The notes: generated by a model from the sequence alone, not told the origin. A stretch of 64,000 nucleotides of DNA from a virus (IMGVR_UViG_3300024269_000017); one strand, 5' to 3'. Counted from the first letter of the stretch, positions 12,327-52,290 are shown. Translations and numbers: made by a program.

Positions 12327-12632
12327 CTAAATTGAGTTAGCATCAAAGCGTAAGCTATAAATAGGTACTTGCATTACATTAGTGGTATCAAAAGACCACT
12401 TGCCTCGAGTATCTTCTTTATATAGACCATTCACGCGCGTGCTTAATGGAGTAGGAGTGTCATTTAAATAAAATTTAATTCCAAATACTCCTCCAGAGAT
12501 AGTTAAAGCTGAAATACGAATGGAACTATCAAACATAGAACCACTAATTAACATTTCTGCAGTTAAATTGGCAGGATAATTACGACTATCTCCATCTTTA
12601 ACATATCGCATTTGTTTTGTTTTTGTTGCCAT
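12327..12632 (-). CDS. small tail-associated protein (101 aa)
   Basis: ORF track; separate frame from neighbours. Confidence 0.5.
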   Translation of the reverse strand: MATKTKQMRYVKDGDSRNYPANLTAEMLISGSMFDSSIRISALTISGGVFGIKFYLNDTPTPLSTRVNGLYKEDTRGKWSFDTTNVMQVPIYSLRFDANSI

Positions 12633-12643
12633 AATATCCCTCC

Positions 12644-15343
12644 TTAGAAGATTCTATCTTCTGCTTTCGTAGCAGTGATATTCATAGTTCCATCATGAGA
12701 GAAAGAATAACTAAAAGATTTTACAAAATATTCTCCTCGAATTCCAGTTATATCATCTGAAACAGATATGCGCACATTTGGTTCAAAATAATAAACTGGC
12801 AAAGAATTTAAAGTAATAGTTTCTTGATAATAAGTATATTGATATACCATATTATCTAAAACTTCTTTAGCACTTTTTCCCTAGCCACTTAAAGTAAAAT
12901 AATTAAGTAATCCACCCACCAAATTTAATTTTACATAATTCAATGTAGATTCAGTTGGTTGAGTGTCTGTAGGATCAATAAACAATATTTCAGGAGTATC
13001 TCTAAAAAATATCGCTTTTACATCGTTATCATTAACAACTTTCGGCCGTCTACCGATTTTATCCATACGGTATTTCTCTAATTCGCTACCCTCGCCAATA
13101 AAATCAATCCAAAACAACAATTTACCTGGATCTTTAAAATATAAAGTATGTGGTAAATTATGTCCTTCACTATCAAGTTCAGCCTAACAGTAAATAATAT
13201 CGGGATGCCAATATTTATTCTCAAACCACTCATTATGTCGTTTAATACGATCTTCTTTTTCTGAATCAGTTAAAGAATTATCTTTTTCAATTTCACTAAT
13301 TGAACGATTATCATATACCAATCGCCAAAAGGCTAACATATCAGCATAACAATAATCATAACCAGTATTCCAAGTATTTTGCCATTTATCAATTAATTCA
13401 ATATGAGTACTACTCATAAATAAATCAGCATCGCTACCATCAGCAGCCGGAATTCCAAAAATCATTGAGCCTTTTTCTTGTAAATATTCAATAGACTTTC
13501 CAGTGTTTTTGTCTGTCATTTCTAAAACTGGATGTTTCCAAGATTTTTCATCAGCATCATAATAATAACATTTTGCGGGAACATTTAATTTAGCACCTGT
13601 TTTATATGGATAATATCCTTTATTCATGGCTAACGTTAATTGTTCTATATATGCAGAAGCTCTTGAATTATCATAGGCCATACGGTATAAAATTTCTCGC
13701 CAGTCCACAATCTAAAAATTATTAGTATCCCACTGTAAAGCATCTAAATTCACAGTAACTATAACTGTTTGATTAATATATTCAGGCTTTTCTGGGATAG
13801 TAATACCAAAATAATCAGAATATCGGCTACGACCATCAGCCAAGAAATATTGCCATTTATTAGAATAAGTTCCATCTCCATTGTCGACATATACCCAATG
13901 AAAAGAATAATAACCATTCAACTCAGTTGTGCCAAGAGTTTCTGTCATTGCAGATAAGAAATTCTCTTCATTAACAATAACATCATGACAATTAAGACCG
14001 TTATTGCGACCTGGCTCAAAATAAATCTTTTTCCCAATTTCGCCAAAACGCCAATTATCTTCTGTATAATAAGTGATACCATTAAATAAACAGAAATATT
14101 CTTGCGGTTTATTATCAATAGCATAACGTAAATGTATTGGTGCATCAGTTGAAGTTGTGCCCCATACAACAAAATCATTACGAATATTACTTAATAAAGG
14201 CTTATTTGCAAATGAGTTAATCAAAAAACCATTAATAAATTCATATTGAGTCTAAGTACTATTTAAACTATCATAATAAGTACTTTCACCTTCATTTGTA
14301 ATTGCACCATGCCAAGCAATATTATGATAAATACGCTTTCTTTGAAAAACAAATCTACCCCAAATATCATAGAAATATTCAAATTCACCAAGCATATTTA
14401 CAATAGCATCAAGAGCTTGTGTGACTGGACTACCAGCATTTACAATTAATTCACCTGGATAAGTAAGTTCTGTTTCACGATATCCTGCAGTATCACCATA
14501 TTCTACAAATTTAATAATACGATAATAAATTCCATTTAGTTCAAATGGCTCATAAGGAATATAGTAATCAGGATCATCTTCTGTAGCGCCTTCTTTTTTG
14601 GGTGCAGCTTGAATAAAATCATTAGCCAAAGCAGATCCTTCAAATACCATTTGACTAGTATAAAACTTAAAATCAGATGATGTAGAAATATCATAAATAA
14701 ATAAGCCTTTATCAGCTACTTTATAATCTAATAATTCTACTGCGCAATCATCTAAATCTGCAATTATAATATTTTCGTAAGATTCAAGAGCATAAGTGTG
14801 TACGGCGTCTCTGACAATTTCTTTGATAGCAATTTCTTTGCGGTAAGTGGTGCCATCACCATTAATAATTTCAATATCACTAAAGCTGTGATCGGCAAAT
14901 AAACTTCCTCCAATTGAACCATCTAACATGCACATTTTATCTTTTCCCTAAATAGAAATTGATAATCCAGATGTATTGGAGGTCTAAGAGAAAGAAGTAA
15001 TAATAAATACTCCCTGTTGAAACCAAATAATTTCATCATGAATTGTATCAATGTAGTTTCGTAATCCAATTAAAACCGCAAATTTAGTATGTAATCCCCA
15101 ATAAATTTCATTTAATTCTGAATTGGTATTATCTGTTGTAATATTGAGGCTGCAAGTGCGGCGGGTGGCTGAAGAGCCATCCACAGAAATATTGCCAGAT
15201 ACAATATTACCGGTAATTTCTGCGATGGCTCGTTCATCCCAGTCTAATGAAATTAATTTAGCAAATACTTCACGTTGAGTATAATTATCTAACTGCTTTA
15301 AAAAGACATTATCTAAAGAAGCTTGAGAAGTACCAATAAACAT
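12644..15343 (-). CDS. ~899-codon baseplate/tail structural gene read through 5 in-frame TAG codons
   Basis: six ORF-track fragments (12644-12850, 12881-13120, 13184-13708, 13712-14224, 14252-14935, 14984-15343) share one frame; every separating codon is TAG (checked at 12881, 13184, 13712, 14252, 14984); gaps contain no TAA/TGA; GGAGGTAG RBS before ATG at 15341-43; TAA stop. Confidence 0.6.
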
Positions 15344-15657
15344 TATCTAACTACCTCCACTTCTTTTTCTTCCTCTTCAAGGACTTGTCGTAAATAATTA
15401 TTCAAACGGTCACGATTAACAAGCCAATTTAACCGCAATGTTTCAACATCATTCTCAGAAATAATTTGTGGATAAGCCTAAACATAAATTCTATATCCAC
15501 CTTGATAATAGTTTTCCACTTGAATTGCATTAATTTCAATCATTTGTCGATTATTAAATATATAGAAGAAATTATAATTCTCAATATCACCCAATGGTTT
15601 ATTAATGTTTTCTGGGTCTGCTATTACAGTAAAATTAAAGCGAGCTGCCAAATAATC
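15342..15657 (-). CDS. small ORF (~100 aa) between two large tail genes; start codon unclear; one in-frame TAG
   Basis: open frame ending in TAA that overlaps the next ATG (TAATG coupling); no convincing ATG/RBS, so start could be TTG or a frameshift product. Confidence 0.25.
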
Positions 15658-18351
15658 TTCATAAGCTCGTAACTCAAGCTTTGTTAAATTATCTTTATCA
15701 CCATATTGTTCTTCTAATGTATAAGTTCTAGTTTCAGCTTTGCAATAAACATATACCTAAATACCAGATTGAACTCTTAAATCTAAATCTCCATGAACAT
15801 TCAATGGTAAATTATAGAAATAATGAGCTAAACCATTATCCTCATTATTATCTGTAAATAATGCTTCTGCATCAAAAGCTGTTGAACCAAACAGTACATA
15901 AGTACCATATTCAATCTCTTCAAAATCCGCGTCTGTAACAGCTGGATATTGTCCTGTTGTAGGATCCACAATACCATGTGCAGGATTTGGAATATATCTC
16001 CAATAAGTATTATCACTTTTACGCAATAAAATACTATTACCATATTGTAATGCTGCAGGCCAATTACCATAATTTAAATCATTATTCCAAACATAAGATA
16101 ATTTCTTTACGCCACATTCGTAAATTGGAATTGAGCGATATTGAATATATACAATACTTGGAATAGTTGCTTTTAAGCCATTCCAGCCTTCAAATAGATT
16201 TCGACTAAAAACACCAGATTTAGTTTCATAAATTTTTTCTTTTGTAATAGGATCTAAGGCGTATGAACCATCTGCCTCTAACTTATATTCATCAATATCA
16301 TAAGTATATAGTTCTTGTTTTTCAGTTAGACCATATAATCCATATCCTACATAAGTCTGAGCATGAATATCTTGAATGGCTTCAAGATTATCTTCGTCTA
16401 TATTTTCAACTGTTAAAATTAAATATCCTTTTACCAAACTTAAAATATCTGGAGGATTAATATATCGTAATGGCGCGGTTGAATAAGTATCTAGTTCTAA
16501 TTCATAAGTGCCAGTTTTATTAATGGCAAAATTATATTCTCCCCACTCAAAGCTCATACCATATGTGCTTGCTTTATTTATTGTATTTGTAGGATCTAAA
16601 TCATAAATAAATTCAATCTTGCGACATCCAGCACCTTCTGTTAAATCATATTCAGAAAATTCTTTTGAATTTTTCATTACTCTTGCAAGATCGCTTAAAG
16701 AAATTGTTTTTTTCATATCAATATGAACGATTTCGTCTTGAGCATTTAATAAAGAATAATTCGCAAGTGTACTAATATTAAATTTATCTACCTCTGATGC
16801 AGTACAAGAAAAGCTATGTAACATTCTACTTATGGTATCATTAGGAGTCAGACTAACGTTGGTTAATCGAACAATATAACTACCTTCTTGTGGAGATTTA
16901 AATAATTTAATCTTACCATTATTTAGCCATTCTAAAACGGCTAACTTAAATTTCCGCTCATAAGTGAAATTTTCGTCTGTAAGGGCAGTACCAGGTTCAA
17001 TGAATGCACTGCGGATAAGAGTCTTATCTTCTTTAGTTCCAAACCATTCAAGGTCATCGCCAGTAAGAATCCAACTTTTATCAAGATCAGTTTTTTTCAT
17101 AAATAATTGATCATTATCCATATGATATGAAATTAAACCATTAATTGGAAACTCTTTATAATTTAAAATACCATTTCGTAAAATAAAAGGATATTGTCTA
17201 CCAAGCGTAGTTTTTTTAGTTTCAGATAAAACTGACTTAAAAGAAGAAATTTTTGGATTAAAACGAATACGCAATTGTTTGTCACCATCATACAGAAAAG
17301 CATCTTCAAATACTGGAATTGTTAAATTAGCAGTAGATACTCTCTTAGAATAAATATTGCGTGAATTTACTTTTTGCAAAGAATACATATACTTTGCACC
17401 AGATTCAATAGCATAATCAATATACTGATAACTACGAGTTTTTGATAATGCCATATTAATAGGAAGTTCTGCAATCGTTTCCCAAAGTCGATTTTCGCTC
17501 TAAAAGTCTTGTCTACAAATAACAAAATTACCAATTAGAGGATATTCTTCTATTTTATTTTCTATTAAATATTTTGATTCAGGATAAATATGTAGAATTA
17601 CACGAGCATTTTCATTATCTACCTCTGTAGCTAAATATACATTTAATGTACTAATAGTGACTGTGGTTTGGGTAATTTCATAATTAACAGTATTTACTAC
17701 TAATCCATTATTAGTAATAATGCTGTACTATACTCGATAAATTTCGCCTTCTGTTAAATTAAATGTTAAAATACATTCATCTGAAGAAGCATCTAAATCG
17801 GTATCAGTTTGAGTATTATGAATTAACCATCCAGTATTTTGTAATTCTGCACCTTCACTATTAGAAAAAATAAAACGATATTGATATACTTTTTCTGATT
17901 CATCCTCATTCTGATAAGTGCCAATAAAAGATGTGTGTGAAATTGCAGTAATTGATTGCATATTTAAACCAGCAATTTCTACGATTGGCTTTGATGTATA
18001 TTTTACAATAGCAACAGTAGAATAATATCCATCATTACCTGCTTGATCAACATATGCTAATTGAACTTTATAAAAATTACCTACAACAAGTTTTGCCACA
18101 ATGTCCTCTGTCAAGTCATAAATTACAGAACGATTTTGGGCGTCATCTCCATATTTTTGAGAGAAAAGATTTGCAATAACAATATCTGTAGATGTTGTTT
18201 TTAAGCGAAGTCGCATTCCCTTAACTGCGGCGTTACTTACTGTAACATTCATAGAAAAAGGGACCTCTAATGAGGTCCCCGTGTTCGTAGTATAAAATGA
18301 GGGAATGGTGCCCGCTATATTTGGTGGATATAAGCGGTTAATTGCGGCCAT
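15658..18351 (-). CDS. ~897-codon tail structural gene with in-frame TAGs at 17728, 17500 and 15757; TGA stop
   Basis: ORFs 15757-17454 and 17728-18351 are in frame; the 273-nt gap stepped by hand contains only TAG codons; frame continues past TAG 15757 to TGA at 15658-60. Confidence 0.55.
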
Positions 18352-18353
18352 TC

Positions 18354-18740
18354 TTACTCCTCCTCAATAAGCATTTCCAAAGCAAGTAATTGTTTGGGGG
18401 TAAATTCCATATTTTCAATAAGTGCAAGAGGAATCTTACGAAGCTCAAGATCTGCAGTAAAATCATTTAGATCTTGACGAGCTTTACGACATTCTTCTTC
18501 CTTGCCTTCTTGAATAGCAAAAACGCCAGGAGCATTCTGAACAAATTCTTGCTTTTCAGCATCAAACTTCAAATATTCAAGAGCAAACTTGCGCTCTTGG
18601 TCAATATAAAACTCTTCTTCTTTCTTAAGCGCAGTAAGATTCTTTGCAATAATCATACCAAGCTTAAAAGGAACTTTAGAATCTTGAAGTTCTTCAAGAC
18701 CTCGCATAAGAGTATCAATTTGAGTATAATTAAGTGTCAT
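18354..18740 (-). CDS. hypothetical protein (128 aa)
   Basis: ORF track; GGAGAAAAAGG RBS; TAA stop. Confidence 0.6.
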   Translation of the reverse strand: MTLNYTQIDTLMRGLEELQDSKVPFKLGMIIAKNLTALKKEEEFYIDQERKFALEYLKFDAEKQEFVQNAPGVFAIQEGKEEECRKARQDLNDFTADLELRKIPLALIENMEFTPKQLLALEMLIEEE

Positions 18741-36931: not shown

Positions 36932-37060
36932 GTTAAATCATCGCGTTCGTCCAATCTAATCTAATATACTTTCTAAATCTGCTAATTCAGATTCAATAAG
37001 CTATACAATCTAATTTCGTTTAGGTCCTATTATTGTTGCTGAAAATTGTCGAGCCCAATA

Positions 37061-42148: not shown

Positions 42149-42172
42149 TCGAGTATTCTCAATAGAATTGAT

Positions 42173-42427
42173 CTATCGCTCAAGCCAAGCAGTTTTCATC
42201 AAAAGAGCTAAAATATGAATTTCTTCAATCGTTAGATCGACATTATACTGTTCCAGCTCTTCGTCGTAGTTATACAATTGAAAACGAGGAAATTCAAAAA
42301 ATGGGATGGCATCCAATAGAAACTGTTTTACATCACGCAAAGTATCTTCATAGGTCAACTCAAGATACATATCATCTGTAATCTTGCCGAAGAATCTATT
42401 ATAGATAGTTTCAAAGGATGTTGCCAT
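42173..42427 (-). CDS. hypothetical small protein (84 aa)
   Basis: ORF track. Confidence 0.5.
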   Translation of the reverse strand: MATSFETIYNRFFGKITDDMYLELTYEDTLRDVKQFLLDAIPFFEFPRFQLYNYDEELEQYNVDLTIEEIHILALLMKTAWLER

Positions 42428-42430: not shown

Positions 42431-43021
42431 TTACGCCTCCTGCTTTGGAGTGACTACCTTATACTGCGGGACTGCGGTACGACGGCCAGTAGCAGGCTGT
42501 GCTTCCTCAGTCTTCACACGACGCACAGGAGTAATTGCTTCGGCTTTCACGCCAGACTCTTCTTCCTCTGCCTTGCGAGCTTCTTCCAAATGCTTAATCG
42601 CTGCGGTTACGTCGAAGCCCATCTTTTCTTTGATAGCTTCACGCTTACGATTATCATTTACTGGAAGTGCCACAGCGTGCTTCTTAATTAAATCAAGCAC
42701 GCCTTCGGGAGCAAAATCCAAACAATCTAAGAATGCATCAATAGAACCTTTTTCAAGTAGATCAATAACACCCTTTTCATCCAAATAATATTCAGGCTCA
42801 ACTTTTACAGACATTTCTTGTAGAGCGGACTCATCCTGAACAAATAGATGCTTGCGAATTAGATTCATGCCGCCGGGCAAATAAGACAGAGCATTTAGTT
42901 CGTCCATAGAAATGGTTTTTACTTCGTTGGGAGCAAACTCGCGACGAACACCCATTTCCGGCACACTGTATACAACCATAGAACTACTTCTATTCTTTAC
43001 AGAAACTTTCTTATCACTCAT
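42431..43021 (-). CDS. hypothetical protein (196 aa), possible head completion/DNA-packaging protein
   Basis: ORF track; directly downstream of capsid gene. Confidence 0.5.
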   Translation of the reverse strand: MSDKKVSVKNRSSSMVVYSVPEMGVRREFAPNEVKTISMDELNALSYLPGGMNLIRKHLFVQDESALQEMSVKVEPEYYLDEKGVIDLLEKGSIDAFLDCLDFAPEGVLDLIKKHAVALPVNDNRKREAIKEKMGFDVTAAIKHLEEARKAEEEESGVKAEAITPVRRVKTEEAQPATGRRTAVPQYKVVTPKQEA

Positions 43022-43039
43022 ATTTTAAAACTCCTTTTA

Positions 43040-43068
43040 CTCAAAAATGGGGAGGGAGTGATCCCTCC
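43040..43068 (-). terminator. terminator after major capsid gene
   Basis: GGGGAGGGAGTGATCCCTCCCC hairpin with T-run on minus strand. Confidence 0.5.
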
Positions 43069-43085
43069 CCGATATATTTATTTAA

Positions 43086-44132
43086 TTAACCAGAAACCTT
43101 GTCACCATCATAAACCTTGGTATCCAAGGAGTTGTTTACATAAACGCAAATGTCAGGAGTCATAACGACGCCAACGCCAACCTTCTTGTAAACCTGGATT
43201 TCACGGCTACGATCCTTGTTAACATACTCGTCAACAATGGTAGCACCTTCCATAACAACCTTAGCTGGCTTTACAGAACCAGGTAGGATGTAGCAATGGG
43301 AAGGATCAATAACCTTCTCGGTATGAGTAGCATCAGTGAAACCTTGTGGAAGAATAACAACAGGATGATTCTTATAAGAAGCAAAGCGACCATTATTCCA
43401 GATAACATCCTTCATGTTGTCAGACCACATATTAGCATTCTCAGGACGAATGGTGCTAGCAAACTCCTCAGTGCAGTAGATGGTAGGAGTACCATAAGCT
43501 GCAGCAATAGAAATAAGACGATCGAATGCCTTCTCGTCGAAAGCAGAAGCCTCAACCTTATTCATGGTTGGAAGCTGATTCAAACCAGTCTTAAGAGCCT
43601 GACCGATCTCCCAGTAAATAAGCTCGTCCATGCCGTCCATAACGATCTTGGTAACTTCAGCAAAATCAGCACGACCATCAAGGAACTCCTCAAGACCGAT
43701 CTGAGCTGCGCCACCAATAGCGCTGGTCTGCATTTCGATAGCAGTATCCTTACCAAGCTTAAAGACTTCGTAGATACCTGCAAGTCCGACCTTGGTAATA
43801 AACTGCTTAGCACGCTGACGATCATGGTGACGATGGAAGATAGCCTTATCGCCCTGACCAATGGTCTTGATCTCAGCAAACTGACCATAGTTTTCCATAA
43901 CCTTCTTAGGAAGTACTTCATCCATAGTCTGCTCAATTAGAGCAAAAATCAAATTCTTATTCTCACGATACTGAGCGAAAGTGCCAGCATACTCGTTGAG
44001 TTCACGGCGAAGAGTCTCATTAAGAGCATCATAAGTCAAATTCTCGCCGTTAAAGCTGTAAGCAACCGGAGCGGAGCGATCAGCTTTAGCAGTAGCCTTC
44101 ATAAGCTTCAAAAGTTCATTTCTTTCTAACAT
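43086..44132 (-). CDS. major capsid protein (HK97-fold-like, 348 aa)
   Basis: ORF track; follows protease/scaffold genes; codon-biased; terminator downstream; no TAG. Confidence 0.6.
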   Translation of the reverse strand: MLERNELLKLMKATAKADRSAPVAYSFNGENLTYDALNETLRRELNEYAGTFAQYRENKNLIFALIEQTMDEVLPKKVMENYGQFAEIKTIGQGDKAIFHRHHDRQRAKQFITKVGLAGIYEVFKLGKDTAIEMQTSAIGGAAQIGLEEFLDGRADFAEVTKIVMDGMDELIYWEIGQALKTGLNQLPTMNKVEASAFDEKAFDRLISIAAAYGTPTIYCTEEFASTIRPENANMWSDNMKDVIWNNGRFASYKNHPVVILPQGFTDATHTEKVIDPSHCYILPGSVKPAKVVMEGATIVDEYVNKDRSREIQVYKKVGVGVVMTPDICVYVNNSLDTKVYDGDKVSG

Positions 44133-44155
44133 AGCTAGTTTCTCTCCTTTCCGAA

Positions 44156-44860
44156 TTACTGAATACGCATGACCTTAACGGCCTTCTGCATATCGCCTAA
44201 ATTGTATACCTTAACAACCTGCCACAACATGCCGGACTCAGCCTCGGTCTTAGCCAAGTAGCCCTTTGCATTAGGAGCAAGAATGTCACCAAGAGCAAGA
44301 GTTTCCTCTGCAACACAGTTAGTAGTAAAGATGTCGCCCTCATGAGTCTTGAATAGACGAGGAGTCATCATACCCTGAACATCAGAAAGTAGCTGAGGCT
44401 GATTTAGATTCTCAATCTCATAGGACTGACCAATCTTCAAATGCATACGACCAAAGTCATCAGCAGCACCCTCATCAGTATAACCAGCAGCATAAACATC
44501 GGTCTCAGCACCGATAGTCTTCATCTGGTTGTCAACATCGCCCTTAGCGCCAACTGGGCTATAAACATAACCATTGTAGTCACGAGCGATCATAGCGAAG
44601 TCCTGGTCGGTCTCCCATGGAGCATAGACCTTAACTTCATTGAAGATAAGCATCCATTCGCCCTTACCTTCAAAATCAACAGTACCATTTACATAGTTGT
44701 ACTTAGCAAACTGACCATTCTCTAGGATCTTGATATCCTTATGAGCAGGCAACTGAGCATAAATTTCACCAGTGCGCTGTGCGGAGAGATGGTTAGGCTC
44801 AACCTGACCGAAGCCATAAGTTACATACTTAGCTTCAGGAGATAATCTTTTAAAAGCCAT
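44156..44860 (-). CDS. head protein (decoration or scaffold-like, 234 aa)
   Basis: ORF track; between protease/scaffold and capsid genes. Confidence 0.5.
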   Translation of the reverse strand: MAFKRLSPEAKYVTYGFGQVEPNHLSAQRTGEIYAQLPAHKDIKILENGQFAKYNYVNGTVDFEGKGEWMLIFNEVKVYAPWETDQDFAMIARDYNGYVYSPVGAKGDVDNQMKTIGAETDVYAAGYTDEGAADDFGRMHLKIGQSYEIENLNQPQLLSDVQGMMTPRLFKTHEGDIFTTNCVAEETLALGDILAPNAKGYLAKTEAESGMLWQVVKVYNLGDMQKAVKVMRIQ

Positions 44861-44886
44861 TTTTTAGCTCCTCCTTTGATATCTAA

Positions 44887-46296
44887 TTACATAGTTTTGG
44901 CAGTCTCACGCACGGCCTTAATCCAGGCTGGTGCATTGTCATTGCCATCGTCGTTGTCACCAAGGGAATAAACCATTGGATCCTGTTTTTCGGGTTCTTG
45001 TTTATCGTTATCAAGGCTGAAATTAACCTTGTTACGAACACAAATAATAGAAAGCTTGGCTTCAATATCATCCAAGGAATAGTTGTCAATATTAGCAACA
45101 ACATCAGCCTTGTCAGTTTCAGTCAACATATAGAAGCCATCAATCATAGCCTGCTTTTCCTTACGATCAGCAGTGGCCTTAAACTCACGAAGTGGAGCGA
45201 TTTCCTTCTCAAGAGAAGCACACTTTACTTCGAGAGCAGCATAATTCTTGGCGAGCTCAACATATTCTGGAATCTCTTCAAGATTATACTTCTTTTCTTT
45301 ATTGCAAGAGCATTCAGACGCAGGTTTTCCGCACTTCGGGCACTTCTTGTCATCCTCGTCCTCTTCTTCATCATCGGACTTGGCGAACTTCTTCTTACCC
45401 TTCTTCTTCTTGTCCTCGTCTTCGTCTTCATCCTCCTCAGACTCTTCAGATTCCTTCTTATCCTCTGAATCATCTTCGTCCTTCTTTGGAGGGAATGGAG
45501 GCTTTTTCTCTTCTTTCTTTTCCTCTTCCTCGTCGGGCTTCTTCTTGAACTCAGTCTCTTCGGCTGAATTCTCGATATTCTGCTCCTCCTCAGTCATAGG
45601 GGTCTTAATATCCTCATTCATTTGAGTTTTTCCTCCTTCTTGTAAAGCTGTTTGTAATTCTTTAATCATGGAGAACAATTGTTCCTTGAACTCTCCATCA
45701 ATAGAGAACTGCGAAGCGATACCCGCTCCCTCAAAGCAAGGTTCGACGTTCTCTCCAAGAATACACAATTTTTGGATAATTGCTTCATTGATAATGAAAA
45801 ACTTAGGCATTCCATTATCGTCTGTTGTCCACTTCCCTTTTGTAAGTTTATTATGAAGTTCCATGGACTGATTATTCCCCTTCTCAATGATACGCTTAGC
45901 CTCTGGGTACACATCATCCCAAATATAACCTTCAGTCATAAGGTACTCATGCTCAACACCATCATCTAAGAATTTCTGGAACCAGACTTTTGCTCCCAAA
46001 TCAACGAAACCATATGGTCGAGTGGTATCAATAATATCAAACTTACCATTTGAAACATCAATCATACGATTATGCTCTTCAAAATCACCAGTAGCCTCAT
46101 TAAAAAAACCAACAATAGGGCAACCTGGCAATGACTTCGCCATATCAGTGGCAACAGCCTTGGTAATTACACTGTGGTTTCTATTGGGATCTTCTCCCAC
46201 ATAACACACTTTAATCTGACACTTAGAGATTAAAGGGTTAACAGGAGTGAAGTTAAGCAATTCAACAGTAGCTTCAACTGGAACACTAATATGCAT
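44887..46296 (-). CDS. prohead protease fused to Glu/Lys-rich scaffold-like domain with Cys4 motif (469 aa)
   Basis: ORF track; long EEKKEEKK / DEDED low-complexity region; CPKCGKPASECSC; GGAGGAAGTTAAATA RBS; no TAG. Confidence 0.55.
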   Translation of the reverse strand: MHISVPVEATVELLNFTPVNPLISKCQIKVCYVGEDPNRNHSVITKAVATDMAKSLPGCPIVGFFNEATGDFEEHNRMIDVSNGKFDIIDTTRPYGFVDLGAKVWFQKFLDDGVEHEYLMTEGYIWDDVYPEAKRIIEKGNNQSMELHNKLTKGKWTTDDNGMPKFFIINEAIIQKLCILGENVEPCFEGAGIASQFSIDGEFKEQLFSMIKELQTALQEGGKTQMNEDIKTPMTEEEQNIENSAEETEFKKKPDEEEEKKEEKKPPFPPKKDEDDSEDKKESEESEEDEDEDEDKKKKGKKKFAKSDDEEEDEDDKKCPKCGKPASECSCNKEKKYNLEEIPEYVELAKNYAALEVKCASLEKEIAPLREFKATADRKEKQAMIDGFYMLTETDKADVVANIDNYSLDDIEAKLSIICVRNKVNFSLDNDKQEPEKQDPMVYSLGDNDDGNDNAPAWIKAVRETAKTM

Positions 46297-46311
46297 TATT
46301 TAACTTCCTCC

Positions 46312-47919
46312 TTAATTAGCAGATTCCTTATTCTAAATAGTTTTTTCAGATTTCTGTCCATCTGGTTTTTCAGGACGACCGCCTTTATTTTCAGAGGAAG
46401 AACCTGTCTAAGAACTTTGAGCTTTCTTCTAAGCCTTCTATCCTAAGATGTCCTCACCATTCATTGTAGAACTCATAATCGGTGGGATCATAATTTCATA
46501 CAAGTGCAATACTTCATTTTCAAAGTGTGCAGTAGCAATAATAGCACTTTGAGAATGACCCATCGCAATCTGCGGTAGCATCTTGGAGTAACCAATCTGC
46601 ACTTGTTCCTTATACATCTTCGCAAGCTCGATGTAGTTGTAGACTGTCGTCTCCAACATATACACTCTAAAGTTATACTTCTTCTTACCGGGGAACTTGT
46701 GACGAACGATCTTGTTTAACATATTACCAAACTGTAGAATCAAATTGCGCATTGAAGCCTCATCATTTAAGATAGACTTTTCAAGAGCAATATTACCATC
46801 TGTATTAAACAAGTTCTAAGAAACACCAAATTGGTTATACAAAGTTCTTTCAACCTTTTCCAAATCATCGGTAGAGGTTGTAGTATTTTTATCCGCCAAG
46901 TCCGCAACAGAGGTATCCGCAAATGTAGTCATAACGTCTACACCAACCGCACGCTTCAACATCTGAACCGCATTGTTGTGAATATCTTTTGCTTCATCAA
47001 CGTCAAAAATCAAATCACCATTCTTATCAAGAGGAAGTTTCTGAATTACAATTTTCAACAATTTCTGCATGGTCTTGCGACGGTCTAAATCCTGCGCTGC
47101 ATCCAAATCCAAAATCGCGGGAATCGCATTTGCAAGAATTGGATAGTCACTACCATTCAGATTTAATTTAATCGCACAAGCGGGATCAAGTAAATACCAC
47201 CCAGCTTGAGAGCCAGATTCATCTTTAAGTTTGCCTTTCTTGTATAAAACATAACCTTTGGCAAACTCTTCTGGGAACATCTTTAAAATTCTAAGTCGCT
47301 GTTCAATAGTTGGGAACTTATCATCAAAGAACTTCATATTGAACTCAACGGCCGGCGAATCGCCAACCATATAACGACTGCGACAATAAGCAACTGGCAA
47401 TTCCTGCAAGGTCATGCCATTAGTGGTATCTACAATATAACCATAGTAGCAACCATTCTTAATAACCTAAAGGGCTACATTGCCGCACATGTATTTAATA
47501 TTTGAGTTATCTAAATAATTAAGAACCTTAGAAAACTCACTTAGAATTTTTTCTTCCTTGATAGAATCATCTTCAACATATGGAACAACATACCAGTCAT
47601 ATCTATACAAAAATGCAAAATATTTGCATAGACGTTCATAGATACCACTTACCTCATAGAAGTAATTTGATATTTCACGCAAGGTGTTATAATCCTTAGT
47701 AGCTAATGCGCGTAAAACCGCATTCTTGTCACCATATGTACGATTGGTCTTTTTTAAAGCACCCAAATCTAAAATAGCATCATCAAGGGTTTGTAGACCA
47801 ATACGAATCTTGCTAAAATCAAGTGGCTCATTATTTTCCGGATCAATATAATCAATATCCCTGCGAGGCGGAGTTAATGCAAAACCTTTAGCACGGATTT
47901 CATCCTATCTTCTTCGCAA
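46312..47919 (-). CDS. portal protein (~535 codons) with >=8 in-frame TAGs; TTG start
   Basis: fragments 46438-46812, 46816-47415, 47467-47766 share one frame; hand-stepped ends: TTG at 47917-19 after AAGGAGG RBS with TAG as codon 5; C-terminal TAGs at 46438, 46429, 46408, 46333; TAA at 46312-14. Confidence 0.55.
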
Positions 47920-47932
47920 CCGTCACACCTCC

Positions 47933-48289
47933 TTAATAGCCAGCCTTTGTCATAATATAATCATAAGTAATAAGATTCTCTTCTGTATACGGAATTTCAA
48001 CTAATGGGATTTCCTTTAATGCACAAAAACGACGTTTCTTGTTATCATTGAACTACTGTTGATAAAAACCTTTTGTTCCACCAAATTTACTTGATGGTTC
48101 ATAATGTTGTTTACCTTGATATTCAATAAGGAAATCAATATTTCCATCATCGTCAAATACACAAAAGTCAAACCGCAAAGGACGACCATTCGGGCTATTT
48201 AAACCCTCAAATGATTGTTCCATTGTGAACCGCAATCCCGCCTCTTCCAGAATCTCTTGAATCTTGATTTCTCCACGAGACGCTCTCAT
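47933..48289 (-). CDS. free-standing DUF559/Vsr-like endonuclease-domain protein (~118 aa), one in-frame TAG at 48053
   Basis: FDFxVFD...IEYQGKQH...EIPLVEIPY motif pattern of the DUF559 PD-(D/E)xK family; GGGAGG RBS; sits between terminase and portal, a typical homing-endonuclease position; paralogous to C-terminus of 53149-53925. Confidence 0.5.
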
Positions 48290-48301
48290 AATGGACCTCC
48301 C

Positions 48302-50044
48302 TTAGTTCATAAACATCATTTCAGAAATTCTGCCTTTGCGTTTACGCTTTTTACTATCTTCCTCTTGTTTAATATAGTACAAGCCATATTCAAAAGCAGA
48401 GAACTTATCTTTCTTAATTGACTTATTAGCTTGCTTTAAAATGATGTTAACACCTTCGTTTTCTTCACGAAGATTCATCATCTCTTCCTTCAATATGGAA
48501 GTTAGAGTAAACGGTTTAAGATATTCCGCCCTCTCTTCAGGTTTCATATCTTGTCCACGCTTAGTTCCCATTAACTTAACTTTTGCCACACGTTCATCAA
48601 TCAGCATCTTTACTTTACCAGAAGATAACTGAGTTTGCGCATTCGCGTGAGCTTCAGTGTTAATAGGTGCATTGGCCTTAATAATATACATAGCATCAAA
48701 CTCACAGGCATCAGTGCGGAACTTCTTATAATAATTTTCTTCATCGTTCTCAACACCAAAGTCAGGATAAGTTTCATTAGTATCCGGATCAATTTGAGTT
48801 TTTACCATATAGTCAACAAGACCAATACCAAGACCATTACCGTCGATAACAATACGACGAGCCTTGTATTTATAGAACAACTTCTTCAATGCAATAGCTT
48901 GATCTTCAAAGTGTTCATCATGTAAAGTATAAATATTTACCAAAGTCTTTAATGATACACCCGCAGTCTGTGGTGTTACCTTAAATACACAAACTACAGT
49001 ATCGCAACCTTTACGACCTACGTCAACCGCAAGTACATAATACGCAGACTTCATAGATCTACCAGAATACTCGTATTCAGGCTGCTTTAAGATTCTATTA
49101 CGATCAAATTGCTCAGCACGGAAGAACGCATCTTCAATAGTGCCAGACCATTTAGATTCATACTCACGGTCAAAAGAGGACTCATTAAATGTACCGTCCA
49201 ATTTCAAGTCGCGCACAAAGTTCTTATCAAGTAATTTCATAAGAACAGGAATTCTCCAAGTACCACCCATAATACAAAACTTCTCCGGTTGCGTAATCTG
49301 TCCAACAAGCATTTGAATCAACTTATCATAAGCGAAAGTATTCTTCCAGCCCGCAGTTGTAACAAAGATCTGACTTTTATTCAGAACCTCTTGATCATCA
49401 GAAGTACCATCCGGCAATCTGCGAGAAACGTTCATAACTGGAATAATAACTTCGTTTAGGATAGTTCCATCTACGCCAACGCACTCCTCAACAAGTCCGC
49501 CATGTCGGCGCTTACCTCTTGATTTTTCGCTAGCACCCAAGTTATCAATATAAGAACCACTTCGGAAAATATATTTACAATAGTCTTTACCTTCTAATGT
49601 TTTACCACGGCCCCAGTCAATCTCTTTTGCGAAGCCCGGCACAAGAGTACAGATTTCCTGGACTTTTTCTTTCAAAATACCAGAAGCCTGTTCCTTACCA
49701 CCAGAAGTAACAAATAGTTTAGATCCCGCATATAGTACTGCACGAGTCATCAAAATCAAAACCGCAAGGAATGATTTTGAATAAGCACGCGGAAAGACCG
49801 CATACACGTATTTGTAACGCATAGCGGCCCGCAAAAATACTCGTTGATAAAAGAATAAGTTAAGCGTTTCCTTTGGAGGATTTGGCTGCCATTTACCTGC
49901 CATGAAGTCAACAAACATGTCAGGGTATTCGCGCCAATAGGCAATATACTAACGTGCGACCGGAATAACGGCCCGCACACGCTCTTCAGATAAACCAATT
50001 TTCTATCGGTCGTTTGAGAGGTTTAATAAGTCTTGTAAAGCCAT
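48302..50044 (-). CDS. terL: terminase large subunit (~580 codons) with 2 in-frame TAGs near N-terminus
   Basis: ORF 48302-49918 extends upstream in frame through TAG at 50003 and one further TAG to ATG 50042-44 behind GGAGGA RBS; size and position typical of terminase large subunit. Confidence 0.6.
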
Positions 50045-50045
50045 A

Positions 50046-51218
50046 TTATTCCTCCTTTAACATTTCCATCATCGTTAAGGCATCATCTTCAGCCTCTTGT
50101 TCTAAGAATTCATAGTGTTCGGCAAAGTCATCATCTTTCAATTCATCAAGAGAATCCATATCCATAATTTCATCTTCATCATCAATATCTTCATCTTCTT
50201 CGCGTTCGGCTTCGCGCTGCAATGCCTTAACCGCAGATTCGATAAGATTACCAAGATTCATCTCTTCAGTAACAAGAGTGTTAGTGTAGCCACGCAAGTC
50301 CGCAAGAGTTTCATCAACTCTATCCTTCGGCTTGTCGGTATAGAAACGAGGAATAAATCCCTCTTCTTTTTCACATAATAAAACCAGTTCAGAAATTGAG
50401 TTAACAAACTCGCCAGCCTCAGCCTTATTCTGAACCGCAGTAAATTTAGCGGATTTCATCAAAGCGTCATAAACCTTAGACATCTTTTGGAAACCTTCGA
50501 TGTCGCCCAAGTCAATCAGTTGATGAGCCTTGATTGAAGTTTTACAAATAAGCTTTAAATAGTCTTCATGAGATGGAGTCTGAATATCGAACGATTGCAT
50601 CATCTCTTGATAATACTTCTCTAACTGAACCCATTCATACGGTTTGTAGGTCTTGCCCCACTTAATCGCCAAGTAAGTTTTATCTTCTTCAGTTAGATCA
50701 TCTTCGAATCCCACTGGCTCAAAGGCATCAATCGGAGCAGGCTCCTCTCGTGTTGCTTCTAGTTCAGCGGGTCTTTCAGGTGTCCTGTTTGCGGCGAGAG
50801 CTTCCTCAATCTCTTCTCCAGTATAGCCTTGTCGAGCCATAACGTCTCGCTTCCGCGCATCCATTTCAGCCTTAATCTTTTCAGTATCTTCCCATGAATA
50901 ATTTTTGTATTGATTCAATTTCATTTTGGAAAGGTAACGACCCAAGATGGTCATACCAGTAACCTTGGTGCGGTCCTTGCCATAACGTTCAAGTAGAGTA
51001 TTCCATTCCTCTTCAATATAAGGAACATTGATCTCTTCCAAAATCCATAAATAAGTTTTCGGATTCCAATTGTCTACATGTCGAGTGATGCATTTCTTAC
51101 ATTCAGGTAATTTACCATCGTCGGGGTATCTATCCAACCGATTAGATGTGTAAAATTGATCAGTATCCATCGTTCGACCGCAGACCTTACAATAATAAGT
51201 TTTATTTAAGTCTGCCAT
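50046..51218 (-). CDS. Zn-ribbon protein with acidic C-terminus, possible terminase small subunit (390 aa)
   Basis: ORF track; CxxC...CxxC near N-terminus; immediately upstream of large terminase. Confidence 0.35.
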   Translation of the reverse strand: MADLNKTYYCKVCGRTMDTDQFYTSNRLDRYPDDGKLPECKKCITRHVDNWNPKTYLWILEEINVPYIEEEWNTLLERYGKDRTKVTGMTILGRYLSKMKLNQYKNYSWEDTEKIKAEMDARKRDVMARQGYTGEEIEEALAANRTPERPAELEATREEPAPIDAFEPVGFEDDLTEEDKTYLAIKWGKTYKPYEWVQLEKYYQEMMQSFDIQTPSHEDYLKLICKTSIKAHQLIDLGDIEGFQKMSKVYDALMKSAKFTAVQNKAEAGEFVNSISELVLLCEKEEGFIPRFYTDKPKDRVDETLADLRGYTNTLVTEEMNLGNLIESAVKALQREAEREEDEDIDDEDEIMDMDSLDELKDDDFAEHYEFLEQEAEDDALTMMEMLKEE

Positions 51219-51223
51219 TCACA

Positions 51224-52290
51224 TTACTCCTTTGCCTTCTTGTTCTTGGCATTCCGGCAACACTTACACAAAGAATACCATCCATCTCTTGAACCTTTGT
51301 TTATGGAAAAAAATCTTGAATGGGCTAACTTAATTTGCCCACACCTAGTACATTTCTTCCACTTCCCATATTCTTTTTCAGTATAATACCAGGTCAGCCA
51401 TTCATCTGTATAATAAGAGGCAATGAGCTTTGGAATTTTATTACGCCATAACGAAGAAATATATTCGAGCGAATGAGTGAAGCCGAATTCCTTTTCAATC
51501 ATTTCCTTGATATCAACATTAGATTGCCCGTCAATTTTATATTCTACAATACGACGGTATAAAGGATAGCCGGCAAGTGAATTATCTACTAATCTATCAA
51601 AGTCTTCCATCATATACCAGGTATCACCCTCGAACCTGCCATAGCATCCTTCTTTTAGTTTAGAATAATTGCATAAAATAGTGCTAATAACAACGGGATT
51701 GATAAAGGACACACCTTCATACTGGATTTCTCCATTTTCATCTACCCATTCATCCCATGGGAGTTTAATATAGTGTCCGATATTTCTTGTAATATTTCGC
51801 GCAACAATTGGTTGGCGGTAGGCGTTTTTAATAAGATATTGATCCTTCCGCAATTCGATAATAGTTGATTTGATAATATAGGCTGCTCGCCCAGTCGCAG
51901 TTTTAGACAGCTTTTCCCAATATGCTATGCTGTCGCGCAACTGACGTAATGGCTCAATTTCTTCTAAATCTTTTTTCGTAATTGTTACTTTCGGCTAAAA
52001 TATTACATTCTTATCGTTCGTTACTAAATTATATATACCATCTTCGCCATTCTCCAACTGGCCAACAAGACCCTCGAAAGATGTTTCTCGTTTATTGACA
52101 GTCGCCATACGGTTGTCGGTGAGAATCTTTCGCTCCTTCTTCTCTTGTTTCTCCATACAAAGAACCAAATAATCAGCAAGGATTTCCAGATATTGCTCGC
52201 TTGGGTCGGGAGTCTCTGTTAAAATCTATTTCACCAATTCATTTCGCTCTTGAGGAGATTCAATCGTATAATCTAGCTTGATTATAATAA
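51224..52290 (-). CDS. ~355-codon protein with C-terminal CxxC...CxxC Zn-finger and 2 in-frame TAGs; first gene of late operon
   Basis: ORF 51224-51940 continues upstream in frame through two TAGs to AGGAGG RBS near 52295; exact start codon unclear (TTG or ATT). Confidence 0.4.

What the first reader, a model, noticed from the sequence alone, without database searches (positions are those of the whole stretch)
12327..52290. Amber (TAG) stop-codon reassignment or read-through across the late/structural module
Between ~12.3 and 52.3 kb nearly every long minus-strand gene is split in the ORF track into fragments that share one reading frame. Every separating codon I checked is TAG (more than 50 positions, including 12881, 13184, 13712, 14252, 14984, 15757, 17500, 17728, 21460, 22036, 23290, 23875, 37787 to 38102, eleven in 39803-40549, 46333 to 47905, 48053 and 50003). 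The gaps I stepped through codon by codon contain no TAA or TGA. RBS-coupled gene boundaries always use TAA (once TGA). Random pseudogenisation would give a mix of all three stops and frameshifts. This pattern is what TAG-recoded phages (genetic code 15, TAG read as Gln) show in late genes.
Basis: partly seen in the sequence, partly recalled or inferred. Interest (0 to 1): 0.9.

Follow-up and report, generated by a model that had tools for sequence, protein, structure and literature searches.

The report
Phage late genes read TAG as glutamine
This window is part of a ~168-kb gut phage whose structural genes contain about 100 in-frame TAG codons that are read as glutamine. This kind of stop-codon recoding (genetic code 15) is well documented in gut phages, so the finding is real but not new in kind.

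Summary
On the minus strand, 26 genes (504-52,312) carry 103-104 in-frame TAG in 12 genes and no in-frame TAA or TGA. They end with TAA (24) or TGA (2), never TAG. Reading TAG as sense raises coverage of 12,243-52,312 from 69.5% to 98.8%.

TAG means glutamine. In a 96.5%-identical relative, every variable TAG site is TAG<->CAA/CAG (6 of 6), and changes are 267 synonymous to 29 non-synonymous. In 22 standard-code relatives, Gln is the majority residue at 12 of 24 covered TAG sites, matching true Gln codons (71 of 138). Across 80 relatives, in-frame stops are 1,684 TAG against 2 TGA and 0 TAA.

The phage has an SPbeta-like structural module. It is a distant relative (TerL 43%) of the published code-15 phage phAss-1.

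No tRNA lies in the window or in about 99 kb scanned around it, part of that read only in close relatives. An 82%-TerL recoded relative and a syntenic 60% relative carry a tRNA(CUA) in an array predicted about 20 kb right of the window.

This is a new member of a known kind. Side observations: capsid and tail-tube genes stay TAG-free across the family, the window shows three codon regimes, and relatives carry odd suppressor-type and interrupted tRNAs.

The parts
51224..52312 (-). First gene of the late operon. It is sigma-factor-like (phrog_5767) with a C-terminal Zn-ribbon. It has 2 in-frame TAG (52228, 51997). A third TAG at 52312 lies in the AGGAGG region before a probable non-ATG start (TTG 52294 or ATT 52291).
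50046..51218 (-). YonG-like protein (phrog_3314, PF27269). It has 0 TAG here, but relatives carry TAG in this gene (194 TAG over 80 loci).
48302..50044 (-). Large terminase with 2 TAG (codons 14 and 32). In the 96.5% relative three further codons are TAG where the window has CAA, CAA and CAG. Changes are 56 synonymous and 0 non-synonymous.
47933..48289 (-). Small DUF2726/homing-endonuclease-like protein with 1 TAG. That site is invariant Gln in 22 standard-code relatives.
46312..47919 (-). Portal protein (phrog_2739). It starts at TTG 47919 behind an AAGGAGG. It has 7 TAG, the first at codon 5.
42431..46296 (-). TAG-free block of abundant head proteins: YonD-like 44887-46296, 234-aa 44156-44860, major-capsid-like YonB 43086-44132, and 196-aa 42431-43021. 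GC3 is 0.37-0.43 and CAG far outnumbers CAA. The three smaller genes stay almost TAG-free across the family (2 TAG in 56 loci, 0 in 57, 4 in 54); the YonD-like gene has 70 in 64.
41789..42427 (-). 212-aa head/neck protein with 1 TAG, invariant Gln in standard-code relatives. It ends in TGA.
40565..41509 (-). 314-aa protein (phrog_31155). It has 0 TAG within the called gene.
39803..40549 (-). YomV-like 248-aa protein (phrog_4051). It is the most densely recoded gene: 11 TAG, which is 69% of its Gln codons. Five of these sites are invariant Gln in 15 standard-code relatives.
38845..39777 (-). Tail tube protein (YomU_Tube, phrog_2729). It has 0 TAG, GC3 0.40 and CAG:CAA of 12:1. There are 0 TAG in 40 family loci.
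38229..38762 (-). YomW-like 177-aa protein with 0 TAG here. Relatives carry 81 TAG over 54 loci.
36938..38215 (-). 425-aa protein of unknown function with 8 TAG. It ends in TGA.
36345..36869 (-). YomO-like 174-aa protein, inferred from its position to be a tape-measure chaperone. It has 0 TAG.
24880..36255 (-). Tape measure protein, 3,791 aa with 42 TAG, the first at codon 6. Both ends align to the tape measure of Enterococcus phage VRE9_4.
18766..24759 (-). 1,997-aa tail protein with 18 TAG, the first at codon 4. Its N-terminus aligns to the VRE9_4 tail protein (phrog_3267).
18354..18740 (-). 128-aa protein with 0 TAG.
12243..18351 (-). Three tail/baseplate-region genes: 15343-18351 (1,002 aa, 4 TAG), 12644-15343 (899 aa, 6 TAG) and 12243-12632 (129 aa, 1 TAG at 12327-12329, the left limit of the finding).
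504..12146 (-). TAG-free distal tail-fibre block on the late strand: 10935-12146 (Phage_tail_C), 9565-10920, 7899-9545, and 504-7817 (2,437 aa, BspA-type LRR). It contains 123 Gln codons, none of them TAG.
52371..64000 (+). Divergent module of short genes, inferred to be early. GC is about 0.49 and GC3 0.58. All 16 genes end in TGA and none has an in-frame TAG. It includes three paralogues (57698, 61254, 63165), a MazE-like gene, T5orf172 and DUF2726 proteins.

Best explanation
The window is about 64 kb of a ~168-kb tailed phage with an SPbeta-like structural module. Its host is probably a Bacillota bacterium, given the strong AGGAGG ribosome-binding sites and relatives binned with Lachnospiraceae MAGs.

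Its late genes are written in genetic code 15. UAG is decoded as glutamine, while UAA (and twice UGA) terminates. These genes include the sigma-like factor, terminase, portal, head-tail connectors, tape measure and tail proteins. Just outside the window they also include an endolysin.

The most likely mechanism has these steps.
1. Early genes on the opposite strand contain no UAG and use host-like codons, so the unmodified host apparatus can translate them.
2. The phage then expresses its own tRNA array. By inference from relatives, this array includes an amber-suppressor tRNA with anticodon CUA and Gln-type acceptor features.
3. UAG-containing late mRNAs can then be translated through.
4. Full-length terminase, portal, tape measure and lysis proteins therefore cannot be made until the suppressor accumulates. 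This gates late functions at the level of translation.

The most abundant virion proteins (major capsid, tail tube and two neighbours) are kept free of UAG and use a distinct high-expression codon set. This suggests UAG decoding is slower or leakier than ordinary Gln decoding.

What is shown: the in-frame TAGs, their Gln identity, purifying selection downstream of them, and the early/late partition. What is inferred: the suppressor tRNA in this particular genome, the timing, and the regulatory purpose.
For: (1) There are 103-104 in-frame TAG and 0 TAA/TGA in 16,878 late-strand codons. TAG is never a terminator.

(2) Table 15 raises ORF coverage of 12,243-52,312 from 69.5% to 98.8%.

(3) Against a 96.5%-identical relative, all 6 variable TAG sites are TAG<->CAA/CAG and 25 TAG are conserved. 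Changes are 267 synonymous to 29 non-synonymous (TerL 56:0, portal 34:2, where the first TAG is at codon 5).

(4) Across 80 IMG/VR relatives, window CAA and CAG codons align to TAG at 9.3% and 6.8%, against 0.7% or less for the other codons tested (GAA, GAG, AAA, AAG, TCT, TTA, TAT, TGG). The window residue opposite relatives' TAG is Q in 717 and TAG in 142 of 1,684 cases. Next come E 135, K 132, S 40, L 33 and Y 21.

(5) In 22 standard-code relatives, Gln is the majority residue at 12 of 24 covered TAG sites, 9 of them invariant. The control is 71 of 138 true Gln sites. Isolate phages with standard code also rank Gln first.

(6) The early + strand has 16 genes, 2,269 codons, 0 TAG and all-TGA stops.

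(7) A recoded relative with 82% TerL identity has an array of at least 22 tRNAs including a 90-nt tRNA(CUA) with A1.C72, G2-G5:C and G73. It sits near a normal tRNA-Gln(UUG) that shares the xGGGG acceptor stem and G73.

(8) A syntenic relative (about 60% aa identity) has the same kind of tRNA(CUA) about 7.3 kb into an array that starts right after an AAA-ATPase gene. A contig at 83-86% nt identity to that close relative starts the same array (tRNA-Met, tRNA-Thr) at that place.

(9) Published precedent covers code 15 in gut phages with recoded structural and lysis genes and suppressor tRNAs (bioRxiv 10.1101/2021.08.26.457843; PMC9523058; PMC10607447).
Against: No tRNA of any kind is in the window (ARAGORN; Rfam). 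None is in about 99 kb scanned around it, counting flanks read partly from close relatives. The remaining ~69 kb of this phage's own genome could not be read, so the suppressor is not shown for this genome.

The tRNA(CUA) seen in relatives has a long variable arm, a feature of Ser/Leu/Tyr tRNAs. Its Gln charging is inferred only from acceptor features and from the codon evidence.

No release-factor, GlnRS or GatCAB gene was seen. Timing and regulation rest on analogy with published models. No protein-level data exist.
Confidence: 0.93

Rival explanations
1. UAG is reassigned, but to an amino acid other than glutamine (Ser, Leu, Tyr, Lys/Pyl, Glu, Trp), or is decoded ambiguously by two suppressors. 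The reason to consider this is that the tRNA(CUA) species in relatives have a class-II-like long variable arm.
For: The tRNA(CUA) genes in L052, L049, L145 and Phass-1 are 88-91 nt with a long variable arm, as in tRNA-Ser/Leu/Tyr. Phass-like genomes carry a 75-nt and a 91-nt tRNA(CUA) side by side. An interrupted class-II tRNA with A73 in a close relative can be read as CUA in one splice register.
Against: Opposite relatives' TAG, the window has Ser in 40, Leu in 33 and Tyr in 21 of 1,684 cases, against Gln in 717. In near relatives only TAG<->CAA/CAG exchanges are seen, never TCG, TTG, TAY, AAG, GAG or TGG. The log-likelihood for Gln exceeds the next residue by 9.5 nats with isolate phages and by more than 400 with the 22 standard-code relatives, although those cells are not independent. 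No pyl genes were seen.
Confidence: 0.04
2. There is no dedicated reassignment. The TAGs are leaky stops read through at low level by host near-cognate tRNAs, or the host itself already reads UAG as sense.
For: No suppressor tRNA was found in the window or its near flanks. Borges et al. detected TAG suppressors in only 40% of TAG-recoded genomes.
Against: With 42 TAG in the tape measure and 18 in the next tail gene, even 90% read-through per site would yield about 1% full-length tape measure. If the host read UAG as sense, the 16 early genes should also use it, and they have none. Relatives encode tRNA(CUA) in a syntenic array.
Confidence: 0.02
3. The TAG-interrupted genes are pseudogenes of a decaying or defective phage, or the TAGs are sequencing or assembly errors.
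For: Under table 11 the genes look fragmented. JGI's own gene calls split them into pieces (L013).
Against: Only TAG interrupts the genes, with no TAA, TGA or frameshift in 16,878 codons. Strong purifying selection acts downstream of the first TAG. TAG positions are conserved in independent samples and assemblers. Among 80 related IMG/VR loci, 58 show the same pattern, with 1,684 TAG against 2 other stops.
Confidence: 0.01

Closest known systems
Genetic code 15 (UAG -> Gln) phages of animal guts: crAss-like, Lak, Garnet, Amethyst and Topaz clades. Sources: Borges et al., preprint 10.1101/2021.08.26.457843; proteomic proof in Peters et al., PMC9523058.
   Same: In-frame TAG is confined to structural and lysis genes, and the early module is compatible with the standard code. 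TAG corresponds to Gln. Suppressor tRNA(CUA) is found in relatives. Recoded and standard-code lineages are interleaved in the terminase tree. GC content is low.
   Different: The virion type is different (SPbeta-like long-tailed phage, about 168 kb) and the host is probably Bacillota. The tail tube and major capsid genes are kept TAG-free here and across 40-57 family loci, whereas Borges et al. report the tail tube of crAss-like phages as preferentially recoded. The early and late modules differ by 14 points of GC and use different terminators (TGA against TAA).
phAss-1 / proposed Phassvirus and its wider group (Babkin et al. 2023, PMC10607447; GenBank OQ749652, 'Caudoviricetes code 15 clade')
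   Same: It is a human-gut phage whose terminase, portal, tape measure and tail-fibre ORFs are broken by TAG. TAG is read as Gln. It has a very long tape measure (3,149 aa against 3,791 aa here) and large tRNA arrays with tRNA-Sup(CUA), including the same long-arm type. It is related to Enterococcus phage EF1-like phages.
   Different: TerL identity is only 43% and there is no megablast match. The genome is about 168 kb rather than 133-138 kb. This phage is not a member of that genus. The published paper does not describe the family of relatives found here (233 IMG/VR TerL matches, of which the 80 best have TerL 71-93%).
SPbeta-like phages and relatives with standard code (Bacillus SPbeta, Geobacillus E3, Enterococcus VRE9_4/EF1, Alicyclobacillus KKP_3916)
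   Same: The structural module is collinear: YonG, terminase YonF-type, portal, YonD, YonB capsid, YomV, YomU tube, YomW, YomO, giant tape measure.
   Different: Those phages have no in-frame stops. TerL identity is 33-48%.

Membership tests
Code-15 (UAG->Gln) recoded phage | Conserved phage ORFs interrupted only by in-frame TAG, with no TAA, TGA or frameshifts | tested here: met
   103-104 TAG and 0 TAA/TGA in 16,878 codons. Coverage rises from 69.5% to 98.8%.
Code-15 (UAG->Gln) recoded phage | TAG positions correspond to Gln in homologues | tested here: met
   TAG<->CAA/CAG at 6 of 6 variable sites. Gln is the majority residue at 12 of 24 sites in standard-code relatives, against 71 of 138 for real Gln codons. 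Family-wide counts are and isolate phages.
Code-15 (UAG->Gln) recoded phage | TAG is not used as a terminator | tested here: met
   26 late genes end in TAA (24) or TGA (2). 16 early genes end in TGA.
Code-15 (UAG->Gln) recoded phage | Sequence downstream of TAG is under purifying selection, meaning it is translated | tested here: met
   267 synonymous to 29 non-synonymous changes against L003. Portal is 34:2 with the first TAG at codon 5, and TerL is 56:0.
Code-15 (UAG->Gln) recoded phage | Recoding concentrated in late structural/lysis genes, with early genes compatible with the standard code | tested here: met
   All TAG lie on the late strand. The early + strand has none. The endolysin just left of the window has TAG. 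The early/late labels are inferred from gene content and orientation.
Code-15 (UAG->Gln) recoded phage | Phage-encoded suppressor tRNA with anticodon CUA | tested here: inconclusive
   None was found in the window or in about 99 kb around it. It is present in the syntenic array of a 60% relative and in an 82%-TerL recoded relative. About 69 kb of this genome could not be read.
Code-15 (UAG->Gln) recoded phage | Peptides with Gln at TAG positions | not testable with these tools
   This needs metaproteomics or virion proteomics.
Code-15 (UAG->Gln) recoded phage | Host uses the standard code | not tested
   The host is unknown. MCP relatives occur in Lachnospiraceae and Bacilli MAGs. TAG-free early genes are consistent with a standard-code host.
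Phassvirus (phAss-1 genus, Babkin 2023) | About 80% or more nucleotide identity and a shared genome plan of 133-138 kb | tested here: not met
   No megablast hit in the phage collection. TerL identity is 43%. The genome is about 168 kb.
SPbeta-like structural module | Collinear YonG/YonF/YonD/YonB/YomV/YomU/YomW/YomO gene set | tested here: met
   Precomputed Pfam hits on the identical contig. tblastn collinearity with VRE9_4.
Pyrrolysine decoding of UAG | pylTSBCD genes, with UAG at a few specific sites | tested here: not met
   There are about 100 UAG spread over structural genes and aligned with Gln. No pyl genes appear among the annotated products. ARAGORN's 'tRNA-Pyl' label only reflects the CUA anticodon.

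The most novel reading that the evidence does not exclude
In this lineage the switch to UAG decoding may depend on unconventional tRNA genes rather than a plain supE-like suppressor.

Relatives carry a conserved 88-91-nt tRNA(CUA) with a long variable arm and Gln-like acceptor features.

Immediately upstream of the array, a close relative of this phage has three 118-129-nt tRNA genes whose anticodon arms are interrupted by conserved inserts of 26-47 nt. One of them reads as CUA in one splice register. Among orthologues its variable positions are concentrated at anticodon-like positions.

If such an insert must be removed or refolded before the tRNA works, RNA processing would be the timer of the code switch.
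Probability: 0.1. Interest if true: 0.8.

Novelty: new member of a known kind. Interest (0 to 1): 0.35.

Why it matters
For annotation, the point is practical. Under table 11, terminase, portal, tape measure and tail genes of this phage and of 58 of 80 related IMG/VR loci fall apart into fragments. JGI's calls on the same phage show exactly that. They must be called with table 15.

For biology, this adds a large, abundant family of SPbeta-like gut phages, probably infecting Bacillota, to the list of code-15 users. Standard-code and recoded members are interleaved at 71-77% terminase identity, which makes the family a good system for asking how recoding is gained or lost.

The conserved absence of TAG from the capsid and tail-tube genes, together with the three codon regimes, offers a testable hint. 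UAG decoding may be costly, and it may be tolerated only in proteins needed in low copy number.

Tried and rejected
**Reaching the rest of the phage genome for the suppressor tRNA**
- Look-ups are limited to 10 kb around window proteins or proteins returned by the homologue search.
- A concatenated query of three flank proteins returned almost only homologues of a widespread tail-fibre C-terminal domain.
- A second concatenation was swamped by a populous 421-aa family.
- The exact 421-aa protein was indexed only on an 11-kb contig.
- Look-ups on relatives stopped just short of the tRNA region.

**Scans that found nothing**
- The IMG/VR scan with a 563-aa flank protein.
- Exact patterns from the interrupted tRNAs.
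- The GTDB scan for the tRNA-Met/Thr junction.
- A first, over-specific tRNA(CUA) pattern found only its own source.

**Scans with limited yield**
- The metagenome scan gave only relatives at 77% identity or less for nearly all loci, with no standard tRNA nearby.

**Association between the long-arm tRNA(CUA) and recoding**
- The pattern hit 28 contigs but only one from the TerL list, so the test has no power.

**Other checks**
- Pfam on the TAG->Q translations gave almost nothing.
- Synteny between the flanks and Phass-1 was uninformative.
- I considered that the 52-64 kb GC-rich block was host DNA or a chimera. I rejected this because it is contiguous in several independent contigs.
- An apparent 94% internal repeat (9,711-9,989) was a self-hit of a spurious ORF.
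- An out-of-frame start I set for the sigma-like gene produced 9 false TAG. The correct count there is 2-3.
- The base after TAG is a purine in about 75% of cases, the same as after CAA, so it is not informative.

Full report
**1. The observation**

The window has GC 0.38 and contains no tRNA.

If TAG is treated as sense, the minus strand from 504 to 52,312 is tiled end to end by 26 long ORFs. Nearly all are preceded by AGGAGG-type ribosome-binding sites. They include frames of 3,791, 2,437, 1,997, 1,002 and 899 codons.

Twelve of these genes contain 103-104 in-frame TAG. None contains an in-frame TAA or TGA in 16,878 codons. Out of frame, TAA+TGA occur at 7.9% per codon. A TAA/TGA-free frame of 3,791 codons therefore has a chance probability of about 1e-135, and even the 248-codon gene has about 1e-9.

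Coverage of 12,243-52,312 by minus-strand ORFs of at least 100 aa is 69.5% under table 11 and 98.8% with TAG as sense.

Every coordinate in the finding is the low coordinate of one of these TAGs. Terminators are TAA in 24 genes and TGA in 2.

The TAGs are present in independent assemblies. A contig from another sample is 100% identical over 33,086-54,132, and contigs at 96.5% identity keep them.

**2. What the genes are**

- PHROG profiles identify a large terminase (48302-50044), a portal (46312-47919), a virion structural/tube protein (38845-39777) and a sigma-factor-like protein (51224-52312).
- Precomputed Pfam hits on the identical contig name YonG, YonD, YonB, YomV, YomU tube, YomW and YomO. 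This is the SPbeta-type structural module.
- The 3,791-aa protein aligns at both ends with the tape measure of Enterococcus phage VRE9_4. The gene order is collinear with that phage.
- Terminase identity is 62% to an unannotated human faecal scaffold, 47-48% to Enterococcus VRE9_4/H1, Geobacillus E3 and Alicyclobacillus KKP_3916, and 43% to phage phAss-1. There is no megablast match in the phage collection.
- Full contigs carrying window genes are 168-172 kb.

**3. TAG is read as glutamine**

*(a) A near relative.* Against a 96.5%-identical contig, 25 TAG are conserved. All six sites where only one of the two sequences has TAG pair it with CAA (2) or CAG (4). Across 14 genes there are 267 synonymous and 29 non-synonymous differences. 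These include 56:0 in the terminase and 34:2 in the portal, whose first TAG is codon 5. The sequence downstream of TAG is therefore under protein-level selection.

*(b) Standard-code isolate phages.* Gln is the commonest residue opposite TAG in VRE9_4, E3 and KKP_3916. An empirical likelihood ranks Gln first, 9.5 nats ahead of Glu. MAG relatives give the same picture.

*(c) Eighty IMG/VR relatives (TerL 71-93%).*
- They contain 1,684 in-frame TAG against 2 TGA and 0 TAA in the aligned late genes.
- Window CAA and CAG codons align to TAG at 9.3% and 6.8%. The other codons tested (GAA, GAG, AAA, AAG, TCT, TTA, TAT, TGG) do so at 0.7% or less.
- The window residue opposite a relative's TAG is Gln in 717 and TAG in 142 of 1,684 cases. 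Next come Glu 135, Lys 132, Ser 40, Leu 33 and Tyr 21.

*(d) The standard-code subset.* Twenty-two of the 80 loci have no in-frame TAG at all. In them Gln is the majority residue at 12 of 24 covered TAG sites, and 9 of these are invariant. Genuine window Gln codons show the same rate, 71 of 138.

Other amino acids, pseudogenisation, sequencing error and simple leaky read-through are therefore rejected. With 42 TAG in one gene, decoding must be efficient.

**4. Where TAG is and is not**

The + strand module at 52.4-64 kb has GC about 0.49 and GC3 0.58. It consists of 16 short genes that all end in TGA and contain no TAG. I infer it to be the early module.

The late strand falls into two classes:

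| Class | Genes | GC3 | Gln codon use | TAG |
|---|---|---|---|---|
| Bulk late genes | most late-strand genes | 0.23 | CAA preferred | 17% of Gln codons overall; up to 69% in the YomV-like gene |
| Abundant virion proteins | tube, major capsid, YonD-like protein and two neighbours | 0.41 | CAG >> CAA | none |

This avoidance is conserved across the family:

| Gene | In-frame TAG / loci |
|---|---|
| Major capsid | 2 / 56 |
| 234-aa protein | 0 / 57 |
| Tail tube | 0 / 40 |
| 196-aa protein | 4 / 54 |
| YonD-like protein | 70 / 64 |
| Terminase | 332 / 80 |
| Portal | 335 / 75 |
| YomV-like | 210 / 51 |
| Sigma-like | 228 / 75 |

The YonD-like gene is TAG-free in the window but is not kept TAG-free across the family.

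The distal tail-fibre block (504-12,146) is also TAG-free.

Left of the window the late strand continues. It carries a 1,252-aa fibre protein with 3-4 TAG (3 in the called gene, 4 in the stop-to-stop ORF), two Tyr/Ser/His-rich proteins, a radical-SAM protein, an endolysin with TAG, and a holin-like gene.

**5. The suppressor**

No tRNA is found by ARAGORN or Rfam in the window, in 17 kb to its left, or in about 18 kb to its right. The right flank was read partly from relatives at 88-95% nucleotide identity.

By synteny, the tRNA region begins just beyond that point.
- In a relative with the same gene order (about 60% aa identity), an array of 17 or more tRNAs starts 22 nt after an AAA/nSTAND3 ATPase gene. 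It contains a 91-nt tRNA(CUA).
- A contig at 83-86% nucleotide identity to that close relative starts tRNA-Met and tRNA-Thr at the same place.
- A recoded IMG/VR relative with 82% TerL identity has at least 22 tRNAs, including a 90-nt tRNA(CUA).

That tRNA has A1.C72, G2-G5 paired to C, and G73. It shares the xGGGG acceptor stem and G73 with the phage's own tRNA-Gln(UUG), but it carries a long variable arm.

The same type occurs in phAss-1 and in 28 IMG/VR contigs of 8-197 kb (all but three above 45 kb).

The presence of the suppressor here is therefore an inference.

**6. Comparison with what is known**

Reassignment of UAG to Gln in gut phages is established.
- Recoding is concentrated in structural and lysis genes.
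- Suppressor tRNAs were detectable in only 40% of TAG-recoded genomes.
- Recoded and standard-code lineages are interleaved (preprint 10.1101/2021.08.26.457843).
- Proteomic proof exists for crAss-like phages (PMC9523058).
- phAss-1 and its relatives form a group of EF1-related gut phages with TAG-broken terminase, portal and tape-measure genes and tRNA-Sup-CTA (PMC10607447).
- NCBI taxonomy already has a 'Caudoviricetes code 15 clade'.
- The protein collection's own gene calls for the ENA contigs of this phage already use a TAG-sense code.

The window is thus a new member of a known kind. It is not a Phassvirus (TerL 43%, different genome size).

It departs from published descriptions in three ways:
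- the tube and capsid genes are systematically TAG-free, whereas the tail tube was reported as preferentially recoded in crAss-like phages;
- the early and late modules differ sharply in composition and in terminator;
- the suppressor has an unusual long-arm form.

**7. Verdict**

Novelty is low: a new member of a known kind. Interest is modest, apart from the side observations listed separately.

Noticed in passing
window 38845-39777 and 42431-46296 (compare 39803-40549, 46312-50044): The tail tube, major capsid and two neighbouring head genes contain no TAG. They use a separate codon set (GC3 about 0.41, CAG >> CAA, CGT/GCT/CTT/AAG preferred), while adjacent genes have up to 69% of Gln codons as TAG. 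The avoidance holds in 40-57 related loci (0-4 TAG in total per gene, against 210-335 in YomV-like, terminase and portal genes). This suggests UAG decoding is costly for high-copy proteins.
   Followed up: yes
window 52371-64000 (+ strand) versus 504-52312 (- strand): The divergent, presumably early module has GC 0.49 and GC3 0.58 with CTG as 48% of Leu codons, and all 16 genes end in TGA. The late genes have GC3 0.23 and end in TAA in 24 of 26 cases. A 14-point GC gap and a complete split in terminator choice within one phage genome is unusual. It fits early genes tuned to the host tRNA pool and late genes tuned to the phage's own tRNA array, but this was not tested.
   Followed up: partly
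L045 20721-21098 (close relative, about 18.4 kb right of the window end); also L052 12364-12799 and L054 7661-7789: Three tandem 118-129-nt tRNA-like genes sit between an 83-aa gene and an AAA/nSTAND3 ATPase gene. They score 42-49 bits on Rfam tRNA in two relatives (L052, L054), and standard ARAGORN misses them. Their anticodon arms are interrupted by inserts of 26-47 nt. The first has a class-II body with A73 and reads as GUA, CUA or CCA depending on the splice register. Differences between orthologues cluster at the anticodon-like positions. The second is identical over 90 nt, insert included, between phages whose flanking proteins are about 60% identical. Short inserts of this kind in bacterial or phage tRNAs are not something I know to be described. 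Whether they are processed is unknown.
   Followed up: partly
L145 3842-3931; L052 21256-21346; L049 20666-20753; Phass-1 (L015 17556-17646); 28 IMG/VR contigs (L144-L171): A conserved class of 88-91-nt tRNA(CUA) with a long variable arm occurs in large gut and rumen phages. Acceptor stems vary with compensatory changes, and G73 is seen in the four copies folded. In Phass-like genomes it sits next to a 75-nt tRNA(CUA). The codon evidence says Gln, yet the shape resembles Ser/Leu/Tyr tRNAs. Its aminoacylation identity is open.
   Followed up: partly
80 IMG/VR loci L064-L143: Within this family, 58 loci are TAG-recoded and 22 have no in-frame TAG. Both kinds occur at the same terminase identity to the window (71-77%). 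Recoding has therefore been gained or lost among fairly close relatives. No phylogeny was built.
   Followed up: partly
window 47917-47919 and 52285-52312: The portal gene starts with TTG behind an AAGGAGG, with a TAG already at codon 5. Public gene calls start it 143 codons too late, at the first ATG. The sigma-like gene also seems to start at a non-ATG codon (TTG 52294 or ATT 52291), and homology extends upstream of the called ATG at 52156.
   Followed up: partly
L043 14040-18606 (4-9 kb left of the window start, outside the window): Two tandem genes encode 538- and 497-aa proteins made almost entirely of Tyr/Ser/His/Asn/Thr/Gly repeats (for example YYSGH and YNSGY). A radical-SAM protein follows directly, then a 462-aa protein, and the lysis cassette lies a few kb further on. 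This looks like a substrate/modifying-enzyme pair of unknown function.
   Followed up: no
window 57698-58066, 61254-61607, 63165-63572; also 57142-57546 with a copy starting near 64,000: The early module contains families of small paralogous proteins (50-60% identity, weak DUF4777-like C-terminus).
   Followed up: no
window 53107-53925 and 47933-48289: A DUF2726-type domain occurs twice. One copy is a stand-alone 118-aa gene between terminase and portal, where VRE9_4 has an annotated homing endonuclease. The other is the C-terminus of a 272-aa + strand protein at the early/late boundary.
   Followed up: no
L145 4060-4131: ARAGORN calls a 72-nt tRNA with anticodon UUA (ochre type) right after the tRNA(CUA) in the 82%-TerL relative. 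It is AT-rich (28% GC), with a 4-bp T stem and a mismatch, so it may be a false call or a pseudogene.
   Followed up: no
L013/L014 (JGI) versus L011/L043 (ENA): The same phage is called in fragments by JGI (586, 338, 133 and 86 aa for one 1,252-aa gene). The calls attached to ENA contigs give full-length genes. Public annotations of this phage are therefore inconsistent about its code.
   Followed up: yes
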